Below the pieces are notes generated by a model. That model did not search any database. It had not been told where the DNA came from and saw nothing but the letters and a program-made list of their open reading frames with translations. Made by a program: the position numbers and the translations under genes. A stretch of DNA of 37,602 nucleotides from Alphaproteobacteria bacterium (GTDB lineage: Bacteria; Pseudomonadota; Alphaproteobacteria; 43-37), in contig CANLAL010000001.1 of the NCBI GenBank assembly GCA_947488045.1, positions 1-37,602 on the forward strand, in the 5' to 3' direction. Numbering within the stretch: the first letter of the stretch is position 1; the number at the start of each line of letters is the position of its first letter. Positions 20,375 to 20,535 of the stretch are shown in pieces.

Positions 20375-20535
20375 ATGGATACCCTGGATATCCAAGGGAT
20401 ATCCCTATTTTTTCCATGTCTATTGGGGCTTTGAGGCCCATGGATATCATTTTCGTATTTTATTTTTTTCTTCATATACTTTCCTTACTTTCTGAGGGTT
20501 TGGGATGGATATCCATATACACAATGGATATCCAT
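20375..20535. repeat. cluster of six (A)TGGATATCC(AT)-type palindromic boxes flanking an AT-rich segment
   Basis: The boxes are atggataccc (20375), tggatatcca (20385), gggatatccc (20396) and catggatatcat (20439). Two identical 12-bp perfect palindromes, atggatatccat, sit at 20505-20516 and 20524-20535. Positions 20450-20500 are T/A-rich. I saw no other perfect GGATATCC in the window. Confidence 0.85.

What the first reader, a model, noticed from the sequence alone, without database searches (positions are those of the whole stretch)
20375..20535. Six GGATATCC-type palindromes around an AT-rich core: iteron, operator or origin-like structure
Six boxes built on the consensus (A)TGGATATCC(AT) fall within 161 bp. 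Four carry a perfect GGATATCC core (20386, 20397, 20507, 20526). Two form the identical 12-bp perfect palindrome ATGGATATCCAT, 19 bp apart. I expect fewer than one chance GGATATCC in 37.6 kb and found no other perfect copy. A one-mismatch copy, ctggatatct, lies at 11631-11640, upstream of the first gene of the orphan island. The boxes split into two groups around a T/A-rich stretch at 20450-20500. The half-sites also resemble relaxed DnaA boxes (ATATCCATA versus TTATCCACA, 7/9). Clustered boxes, an AT-rich unwinding-type segment and no local coding potential would suit a replication origin or iteron region. They would equally suit a multi-site operator for a dimeric regulator.
Basis: partly seen in the sequence, partly recalled or inferred. 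Interest (0 to 1): 0.65.

Follow-up and report, generated by a model that had tools for sequence, protein, structure and literature searches.

The report
Orphan GGATATCC palindrome cluster, not an origin
Six copies of a GGATATCC-type palindrome really do cluster in 161 bp, but they lie in a 1.35-kb non-coding stretch that close relatives lack and that shows no origin features, so they look like orphan protein-binding boxes on imported or decaying DNA, not a replication origin.

Summary
Four perfect GGATATCC cores and two one-mismatch copies lie in 20375-20535. Only 0.36 cores are expected in the whole window.

The origin reading fails. GC skew stays negative across the window and 10 kb beyond it. 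The dcw and ribosomal-protein operons are both on the minus strand, as expected within one replichore (inference). No DnaA box with one mismatch or fewer lies within 20.2-21.6 kb. The "AT-rich core" is 65-75% AT, ordinary for intergenic DNA here.

In the nearest relative, tolB and trhO are 64 bp apart. The boxes therefore sit in a lineage-specific 1355-bp stretch (20261-21615). It has no Pfam, Rfam, plasmid or phage match. It also holds a 130-nt MITE-like compound hairpin.

The conserved trhO -35 box (20247-20252) lies outside this stretch, 123 bp from the nearest box. No regulator gene is nearby.

The boxes form two about 39-bp direct-repeat modules 130 bp apart. Each module can form a hairpin followed by a T run.

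Best reading (0.4): orphan binding sites for a symmetric dimeric protein, carried on relic or mobile non-coding DNA. Rivals are a hairpin-type mobile element, terminators, neutral duplication, and an origin (about 0.03). Interest is low to moderate.

The parts
20375..20384 (.). Box A, ATGGATACCC (core GGATACCC, one mismatch)
20385..20394 (.). Box B, TGGATATCCA, a perfect 10-bp palindrome
20395..20406 (.). Box C, AGGGATATCCCT, a perfect 12-bp palindrome. Its centre is 11 bp from the centre of box B.
20440..20449 (.). Box D, ATGGATATCA (core GGATATCA, one mismatch), a solo box between the two groups
20505..20516 (.). Box E, ATGGATATCCAT, a perfect 12-bp palindrome
20524..20535 (.). Box F, ATGGATATCCAT, identical to box E and 19 bp downstream of it
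20375..20413 (+). Left module: boxes A-B-C followed by a T run. B and C can pair as an 8-bp hairpin (-10.3 kcal/mol).
20505..20542 (+). Right module: box E, a degenerate middle unit, box F, then a T run. It is a direct repeat of the left module, 130 bp away. E and F can pair as a 12-bp hairpin (-16.4 kcal/mol, z -4.6).
20405..20504 (+). T-skewed spacer (65% AT, 50% T) that contains box D. It is not exceptionally AT-rich for this genome.
20261..21615 (.). Lineage-specific 1355-bp non-coding stretch between trhO and tolB. In relative L116 the same position holds 64 bp.
20553..20682 (.). Compound hairpin of about 130 nt (MITE- or RPE-like palindromic element), 18 bp to the right of box F
20247..20252 (-). 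TTGACA within the invariant motif TTTCTTGACAG. This is the probable trhO -35 box. It is conserved in L115 and L116 and lies outside the inserted stretch.
19265..20206 (-). trhO (UPF0176/rhodanese tRNA uridine hydroxylase), the left neighbour. The gene as called in the collection is 310 aa.
21628..22950 (+). tolB, the right neighbour

Best explanation
The six boxes are most likely recognition sites for a symmetric (dimeric) sequence-specific DNA-binding protein that reads the half-sites GGAT|ATCC. They sit on a 1.35-kb piece of lineage-specific non-coding DNA between trhO and tolB. That DNA is probably the remains of, or a passenger from, mobile DNA such as a MITE-like element or a plasmid or phage regulatory region.

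The array is 'orphan': no gene for a cognate binding protein and no regulated promoter lies beside it.

**Inferred mechanism (not shown).** One dimer binds per box. Neighbouring boxes (B and C, centres 11 bp apart on the same helical face) bind cooperatively. The left group (A-B-C) and right group (E-F) could be bridged across the roughly 100-bp T-rich spacer that holds box D.

**Shown.** The boxes, their symmetry and their significance. The module duplication. The absence of the segment from relatives. The lack of coding or RNA-family signal. The lack of origin features.

**Not shown.** That any protein binds, and what the array does today. It may now be functionless.
For: - Four perfect palindromes share an invariant 8-bp core while their flanks differ (TGG..CCA, AGGG..CCCT, ATGG..CCAT). 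This fits a constraint on a recognition core more than plain copying.
- The enrichment is extreme: 4 observed against 0.36 expected in the window, and 0.02 expected in the inserted stretch.
- Each hairpin arm is itself a palindrome. A hairpin does not need that, but a dimer-binding site does (reasoning).
- The segment 20261-21615 corresponds to 64 bp in L116. It is also absent upstream of tolB in L288. About 45 kb of DNA from relatives holds no GGATATCC.
- The segment has no Pfam, Rfam, plasmid or phage similarity and no remnants of the relatives' neighbouring genes.
- A MITE-like 130-nt compound hairpin abuts the cluster.
- Analogies from elsewhere, as leads only:
  - A phage family carries 4-6 TTGGATATCCAA boxes within about 300-350 bp, directly downstream of a 66-84-aa ribbon-helix-helix repressor gene (phrog_876).
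  - An Elstera MAG has two TGGATATCCA boxes between a TTGACA and the ribosome-binding site of what, from my reading of its first residues only, may be a small antitoxin-like gene.
  - An unrelated metagenomic MITE of about 320 bp is packed with ATGGATATCC boxes.
Against: - No candidate binding protein is encoded near the boxes. tblastn with the phage ribbon-helix-helix proteins against the window found nothing.
- No sigma-70-like promoter is predicted under the boxes.
- No second copy of the box occurs in 47.6 kb of this genome.
- There is only one sequence of this locus, so conservation of the boxes cannot be measured.
- The middle unit of the right module has decayed. That fits relaxed constraint.
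- No terminal duplication or other direct mark of mobility was found.
Confidence: 0.4

Rival explanations
1. Hairpin-type mobile or selfish repeat. The two 39-bp modules would be the ends of a small non-autonomous element (MITE-like, an IS200/IS605-type palindrome-associated element, or a REP/BIME-like unit). Their hairpins would be recognised as single-stranded or cruciform DNA by a transposase encoded elsewhere. The boxes would matter as hairpin arms.
For: - Two similar modules lie in direct orientation 130 bp apart, and each folds into a stable hairpin (-10.3 and -16.4 kcal/mol).
- The cluster is bounded by inverted ATGGATAYCC / GGATATCCAT ends (I7 and I24).
- It lies in a lineage-specific stretch next to another compound hairpin element.
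- An unrelated metagenomic MITE family of about 320 bp carries about 10 of the same boxes.
Against: - No second copy exists in 47.6 kb of this genome or in the relatives.
- No target-site duplication is visible.
- Similarity to the metagenomic MITE is limited to the boxes themselves.
- Hairpin ends of IS200/IS605 or REP elements are not built from arms that are each palindromic (established knowledge).
- No transposase was found among the ORFs annotated in the window.
Confidence: 0.2
2. No present function. The cluster would be a by-product of local duplication or slippage of a 10-bp unit in decaying intergenic DNA, comparable to the CCATGGATAT-type satellites seen in metagenomes.
For: - A-B-C is a three-unit tandem array with a period of 9-11 bp. 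E-x-F is its diverged copy, with a decayed middle unit.
- The surrounding 1.35 kb is non-coding and not conserved in relatives.
- Tandem arrays of the same 10-bp unit are common in unrelated metagenomic contigs.
Against: - Four cores are still perfect, and three different flank versions share the same core. That is not what recent plain copying gives.
- The solo box D lies apart from both arrays.
Confidence: 0.2
3. A chromosomal operator or upstream regulatory array through which a regulator encoded elsewhere controls trhO and/or tolB.
For: - The boxes are palindromic and lie in the divergent trhO-tolB intergenic region.
- The centres of B and C are 11 bp apart.
Against: - The conserved trhO -35 box lies 123 bp from box A and outside the inserted stretch.
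- tolB starts 1.1 kb away.
- Relatives express the same genes without the boxes.
- No promoter is predicted within the cluster.
Confidence: 0.1
4. Two tandem intrinsic terminators, or an insulator, that stop plus-strand transcription between trhO and tolB. A variant is that they bracket a small RNA of about 125 nt.
For: The terminator scan flagged exactly the B-C and E-F hairpins, each followed by a T run on the plus strand. Their energies are given.
Against: - No plus-strand gene or predicted promoter lies upstream. The DNA there is antisense to trhO.
- The scan found 2 sites where shuffles give 1.5.
- A terminator does not require palindromic arms.
- No Rfam family matches.
Confidence: 0.07
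5. A replication origin: the chromosomal oriC, or an integrated iteron-type plasmid origin.
For: The boxes are clustered next to a T-rich stretch, and each half-site matches the DnaA box at 7 of 9 positions.
Against: - GC skew is negative and unchanged on both sides of the cluster and for 10 kb beyond the window.
- The dcw and ribosomal-protein operons are both on the minus strand, as expected within one replichore (inference).
- No DnaA box with one mismatch or fewer lies in 20.2-21.6 kb.
- No dnaA, hemE, par or rep gene was found among the annotated ORFs.
- The spacer is only 65-75% AT.
- The segment is absent from relatives.
Confidence: 0.03

Closest known systems
Arrays of short operator or centromere repeats bound by ribbon-helix-helix dimers (Arc/Mnt operators, R1 parC-ParR, TP228 ParG sites, omega-protein heptads). 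Comparison from established knowledge.
   Same: Several short symmetric or repeated subsites lie about one helical turn apart (B-C centres 11 bp). They are grouped on both sides of an AT-rich spacer.
   Different: No adjacent par or regulator gene, and no promoter shown inside the array. The boxes are 8-12-bp palindromes, not 7-11-bp direct iterons. No binding has been shown.
Phage family in IMG/VR (L238, L241, L254-L256 and others) with 4-6 TTGGATATCCAA boxes beside a small ribbon-helix-helix repressor gene (phrog_876)
   Same: The palindromic core is the same, and several copies cluster in a few hundred bp of AT-rich non-coding DNA.
   Different: The phage boxes are 30-125 bp apart over about 350 bp and lie next to a candidate binding-protein gene. 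The window has no homologue of that protein. There is no sequence similarity beyond the box. The function of the phage boxes is itself only inferred.
MITE family of about 320 bp in metagenomes Ga0058701 and Ga0268247 (terminal inverted repeat CCCTGGATCGAGAATCCATAGCAA, about 10 internal ATGGATATCC boxes)
   Same: The 12-mer ATGGATATCCAT is the same, with box spacings of 9-12 and 18-20 bp, in short non-coding DNA.
   Different: That family is dispersed, about 50 contigs in one sample, and has clear terminal inverted repeats. The window has a single copy with no such ends. Similarity is confined to the boxes. The host is unrelated: no protein or DNA match to the window.
Bacterial oriC (DnaA-box cluster plus DNA-unwinding element)
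   Same: Repeated boxes lie near a T-rich stretch, and the half-site ATATCCATA resembles TTATCCACA at 7 of 9 positions.
   Different: No skew switch, no canonical DnaA boxes, no origin-linked genes, a modest AT content, and absence from relatives.

Membership tests
Chromosomal replication origin (oriC) | Cluster of DnaA boxes (TTATCCACA with one mismatch or fewer) | tested here: not met
   of the 18 matches in the window, none lies between 17678 and 23875. The boxes match at only 7 of 9 positions.
Chromosomal replication origin (oriC) | GC-skew sign change, or a switch of gene strand, at the site | tested here: not met
   skew is -0.06 on the left and -0.05 on the right, and -0.14 in the 10 kb beyond the window; the dcw and ribosomal-protein operons are both on the minus strand.
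Chromosomal replication origin (oriC) | Strongly AT-rich unwinding element | tested here: inconclusive
   65% AT between boxes C and E, 75% over 20450-20500, and 80% in the best 50-bp window. 213 windows elsewhere are richer. Other intergenic regions are 64-77% AT.
Chromosomal replication origin (oriC) | Conserved position in relatives, next to origin-linked genes (dnaA, dnaN, hemE, parAB) | tested here: not met
   the segment is absent in L116 and L288; none of these genes was found among the ORFs annotated in the window.
Iteron-type plasmid origin | Tandem direct repeats of 17-22 bp next to a rep gene | tested here: not met
   The boxes are 8-12-bp palindromes. No Rep domain appears in any frame of the inserted stretch or among the annotated ORFs of the window.
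Operator of a dimeric transcription factor | Dyad-symmetric sites | tested here: met
   B, C, E and F are perfect palindromes of 10-12 bp.
Operator of a dimeric transcription factor | Sites overlap or adjoin the promoter they control | tested here: not met
   no sigma-70-like promoter lies in 20375-20535; the conserved trhO -35 box at 20247-20252 is 123 bp from box A. tolB starts at 21628.
Operator of a dimeric transcription factor | Cognate regulator identifiable, and sites conserved at orthologous loci | tested here: not met
   No regulator gene flanks the cluster. Relatives lack the sites.
Operator of a dimeric transcription factor | Specific protein binding | not testable with these tools
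   This needs EMSA, DAP-seq or a pulldown.
Plasmid or phage centromere (parC/parS type) | Repeat array adjacent to parA/parM and a centromere-binding protein gene | tested here: not met
   No par-like gene was found among the ORFs annotated in the window, and there is no remnant in the inserted stretch.
Intrinsic terminator | Stable stem-loop followed by a U run | tested here: met
   B-C at -10.3 kcal/mol followed by TATTTTTT, and E-F at -16.4 kcal/mol followed by AGTTTTT, both on the plus strand only.
Intrinsic terminator | Lies at the 3' end of a co-oriented transcription unit | tested here: not met
   the upstream plus strand is antisense to trhO, with no plus-strand gene or predicted promoter.
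MITE, REP or IS200/IS605-derived palindromic element | Multiple dispersed copies in the same genome | tested here: inconclusive
   No further copy exists in 47.6 kb. The rest of the genome is not available.
MITE, REP or IS200/IS605-derived palindromic element | Defined ends with a target-site duplication or a fixed target motif | tested here: not met
   the flanks GTTGTTT and AGTTTTT are both T-rich but not identical. There are no terminal inverted repeats beyond the boxes.

The most novel reading that the evidence does not exclude
The array is a live cis-acting site with no gene of its own. It might be a centromere-, oriT- or packaging-type landing pad that a ribbon-helix-helix-type protein, supplied in trans by a phage, plasmid or distant chromosomal gene, uses to act on this chromosome region. 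The same GGATATCC code would then be shared with the phage family that pairs such boxes with a small ribbon-helix-helix gene.
Probability: 0.07. Interest if true: 0.55.

Novelty: new member of a known kind. Interest (0 to 1): 0.25.

Why it matters
The finding matters mainly as a correction. A box cluster beside a T-rich stretch looks like an origin, but skew, gene context and comparison with relatives show that it is not one.

If a protein does bind the boxes, the locus would be a clean example of an orphan multi-site array in an uncultured, deeply branching alphaproteobacterium. It would also give a handle on a GGATATCC recognition code that recurs in a phage family and in a MITE family. In practice, the tolB-upstream junction turns out to be a rearrangement hot spot in this lineage.

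Tried and rejected
- **Genome-collection scan** for TGGATATCCA-N0-30-TGGATATCCA. None is the source or a relative, so it is mostly chance plus unrelated local families.
- **Metagenome scan** for the 12-mer pair. None matches the window in DNA or protein.
- **blastn** of the inserted stretch against plasmids and phages. The only hit was one 29-bp chance match.
- **Rfam** at gathering and at E<=5. Nothing relevant was found.
- **Six-frame Pfam** of the inserted stretch and **tblastn** of relatives' neighbouring genes against it. No pseudogene remnants appeared.
- **Exact-protein look-ups** to find other strains that carry the locus. Only the same contig reaches the boxes.
- **Small ORFs across the boxes.** One is on the plus strand at 20440-20544 (34 aa, hydrophobic). 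The other is on the minus strand at 20350-20475 (41 aa, with AAGGA 6 nt before the ATG). I considered a type I toxin-antitoxin reading and set it aside. The hydrophobic peptide follows from the T-rich sequence, its stop codon lies inside the T run, and there is no supporting evidence.
- **R-M reading.** The boxes contain GATATC, the EcoRV recognition sequence (from my own knowledge), but outside the cluster GATATC occurs at the chance rate.
- **Literature search** for GGATATCC. The four papers returned showed no bacterial protein known to bind GGATATCC, judging from titles and abstracts.
- **Hammerhead-like words** (CTGATGAG, GAAAC) at about 20900. There is no Rfam hit and no stem II.

Full report
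**1. Observation**

The stretch 20375-20535 reads as follows:

ATGGATACCC (A) - TGGATATCCA (B) - AGGGATATCCCT (C) - 33 nt - ATGGATATCA (D) - 55 nt of T-rich DNA - ATGGATATCCAT (E) - ATACACA - ATGGATATCCAT (F)

- GGATATCC occurs four times in the window, all of them here. Expectation is 0.36, and 0 of 100 shuffles reached four.
- First-order Markov simulations of the surrounding 1355 bp gave a mean of 0.02 and a maximum of 2 in 20,000 runs.
- The one-mismatch copy at 11632 is at chance level. Two sites with one mismatch or fewer lie outside the cluster, against about 1.1 expected (my own arithmetic).
- GATATC outside the cluster is not depleted or enriched: 9 sites, against 6.9 expected for the whole window.
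First, the "AT-rich core" is 65-75% AT, T-skewed, and ordinary for intergenic DNA in this window. Second, the two groups are diverged direct copies of one module of about 39 bp.

**2. Anatomy**

- A local alignment pairs 20375-20413 with 20505-20542: A with E, B with a decayed middle unit, C with F, and then a T run in both. The score is 33 against a shuffle maximum of 26.
- Box centres are spaced 9, 11, 45, 65 and 19 bp apart.
- Because every box is a palindrome, neighbouring boxes can also pair with each other. B-C forms an 8-bp stem (-10.3 kcal/mol). E-F forms a 12-bp stem (-16.4 kcal/mol, z -4.6).
- The terminator scan flagged exactly these two hairpins on the plus strand, but it found 2 sites where shuffles give 1.5.
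- No sigma-70-like promoter was predicted inside the cluster.
- Eighteen bp to the right of box F, 20553-20682 folds into a 130-nt compound hairpin (-50.9 kcal/mol, z -3.9). It is made of three REP/RPE-like units and is unique in the window.

**3. Context**

Pfam annotation gives this gene order:

- dcw cluster, mraZ to murF (737-7134, minus strand)
- brnQ, then orphan ORFs, uppP, a GST, an epimerase and a DUF1207 gene
- lon (16070-18442), HU, tRNA-Val, trhO (19265-20206, minus strand)
- 1.4 kb without genes
- tolB (21628-22950), pal, an EndoU-nuclease gene, glmU, glmS, a second HU, an MFS transporter, sucA, sucB and L17

TolB homologues place the organism among uncultured alphaproteobacteria. 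The best match is 77% identity to a MAG labelled Alphaproteobacteria bacterium, followed by about 50% to Stellaceae, Dongiaceae and Rhodospirillales.

**4. Not an origin**

- GC skew is negative throughout the window, with no switch near 20.4 kb. It is -0.057 on the left of the segment and -0.047 on the right.
- It is still -0.14, in window orientation, in the 10 kb beyond the right end, which holds the ribosomal-protein operons.
- The dcw and ribosomal-protein operons both lie on the minus strand. I take this, as an inference, to mean that the whole 47.6 kb belongs to one replichore.
- No match to TTATCCACA with one mismatch or fewer lies between 17678 and 23875.
- No dnaA, dnaN, hemE, parAB or rep gene was found among the ORFs annotated in the window.

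**5. The segment is lineage-specific**

- The closest TrhO relatives are only P0002 and P0003, at 75-76% identity. In P0003's contig (L116), tolB and trhO are adjacent and divergent.
- blastn aligns window 19326-20260 and 21616-23563 to L116 but nothing in between. So 1355 bp in the window correspond to 64 bp in L116.
- In a third relative (L288, TolB 77%), tolB follows an ABC-F gene after 340 bp. In L115, trhO has yet another neighbour. The junction is therefore a rearrangement hot spot.
- None of these contigs, nor six short contigs that share the identical HU protein, contains GGATATCC.
- The invariant motif TTTCTTGACAG (minus strand, -35 box at 20247-20252) lies upstream of trhO in all three sequences, outside the segment and 123 bp from box A. 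The core promoter of trhO therefore does not need the boxes.
- The segment has no Pfam hit in any frame, no Rfam hit, no plasmid or phage similarity, and no remnant of the relatives' neighbouring genes.
- It is 100% identical in the ENA contig k141_2734358.

**6. The same box elsewhere (leads, not homology)**

- A MITE of about 320 bp, present in about 50 contigs of Ga0058701 and Ga0268247, has terminal inverted repeats CCCTGGATCGAGAATCCATAGCAA and about 10 internal ATGGATATCC boxes. Its similarity to the window is confined to the boxes.
- Satellites built on a CCATGGATAT-type 10-bp unit occur in several metagenomes.
- A phage family has 4-6 TTGGATATCCAA boxes over about 350 bp, directly after a 66-84-aa ribbon-helix-helix gene. 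That gene matches phrog_876, 'transcriptional repressor', at E 1e-6 to 8e-9, and matches NikA-like weakly. It has no homologue in the window.
- An Elstera MAG has two boxes between a TTGACA and the ribosome-binding site of what, from my reading of its first residues only, may be a small antitoxin-like gene.
- Six Dyella species share a conserved TGTGGATATCCATGTGGATATCCA after a TTGACA. This contains two direct DnaA-box-like 9-mers.
- Palindromes with this core therefore appear in putative protein-binding and mobile-repeat contexts in other genomes, none of them demonstrated.

**7. Interpretation**

- The feature that best separates the readings is that each box is itself a perfect palindrome with an invariant 8-bp core and variable flanks. 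A hairpin or terminator needs only complementary arms. A symmetric dimer needs exactly this arrangement.
- I therefore favour binding sites for a dimeric protein (0.4). The sites sit on non-coding DNA that this lineage gained, or that its relatives lost, and that also collected a MITE-like hairpin. With no cognate gene, no promoter and one decayed unit, the array may well be a relic.
- Rivals are: a hairpin-type mobile element (0.2), neutral duplication (0.2), a real trhO/tolB operator (0.1), terminators or a small RNA (0.07), and an origin (0.03).
- None of the first four can be separated further without the rest of the genome, strain variation or binding data.

**8. Verdict**

The repeat cluster is real and highly non-random. 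The origin interpretation is rejected. The operator-like interpretation is possible but lacks context. Novelty is that of a new member of a known kind (short palindromic box arrays). Interest is 0.25.

Noticed in passing
window 20553-20682: A compound hairpin of about 130 nt, built from three REP/RPE-like units (GATCCTGAATCAAGTTCAGGATGAC; GTCATTCCGGGCGTTGACCCGGAAT; a degenerate third). Its free energy is -50.9 kcal/mol (z -3.9). It looks like a MITE-type palindromic element and is unique within the window.
   Followed up: partly
window 20261-21615 versus L116 9975-10038, L288 7661-8000 and L115 1978-2218: The junction upstream of tolB and trhO differs in every relative: trhO-64 bp-tolB, an ABC-F gene-340 bp-tolB, and trhO beside a 659-aa gene. 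It is a rearrangement hot spot in this lineage.
   Followed up: partly
window 20880-21000 (+): This segment folds better than shuffles (z -3.6). It contains the hammerhead-like words CTGATGAG and GAAAC, but has no stem II and no Rfam match.
   Followed up: partly
window 24468-25385 (-) and 23870-24421 (+): An EndoU-nuclease domain protein of 305 aa lies in a poorly conserved patch between pal and glmU. L116 has only a 29%-identical 144-aa relative there. This could be a polymorphic toxin/immunity region.
   Followed up: no
window 30484-30748: The intergenic region between the second HU gene and the MFS transporter is 77% AT, with 50-bp windows reaching 94% AT. It is far more AT-rich than the 'core' of the finding.
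   Followed up: no
One of them contains a 2 x 30-bp tandem repeat.
   Followed up: no
L118-L237 (metagenomes Ga0058701 and Ga0268247); consensus: A dispersed MITE family of about 320 bp with terminal inverted repeats CCCTGGATCGAGAATCCATAGCAA and about 10 internal ATGGATATCC boxes. It occurs on about 50 contigs of one sample. The host is unidentified and unrelated to the window.
   Followed up: partly
L238 1394-1687; L241 4265-4616; L254-L256, L266-L268, L272, L274-L276 (IMG/VR): A phage family carries 4-6 TTGGATATCCAA palindromes directly downstream of a small ribbon-helix-helix repressor gene (phrog_876). In the one locus examined (L255), nearby genes include a 916-aa phrog_4291 polymerase-like gene and an exonuclease.
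   Followed up: partly
L006, L016, L033, L062, L071, L090 (Dyella species): A conserved TTGACA-N17-TGTGGATATCCATGTGGATATCCA: two direct DnaA-box-like TGTGGATAT 9-mers overlapping a promoter-like site. I did not identify the downstream gene.
   Followed up: no
window 16701 (end of ENA contig k141_2734358, inside lon): The window extends 16.7 kb beyond the only public contig that matches it at 100%. It therefore comes from a different, longer assembly of the same organism.
   Followed up: no
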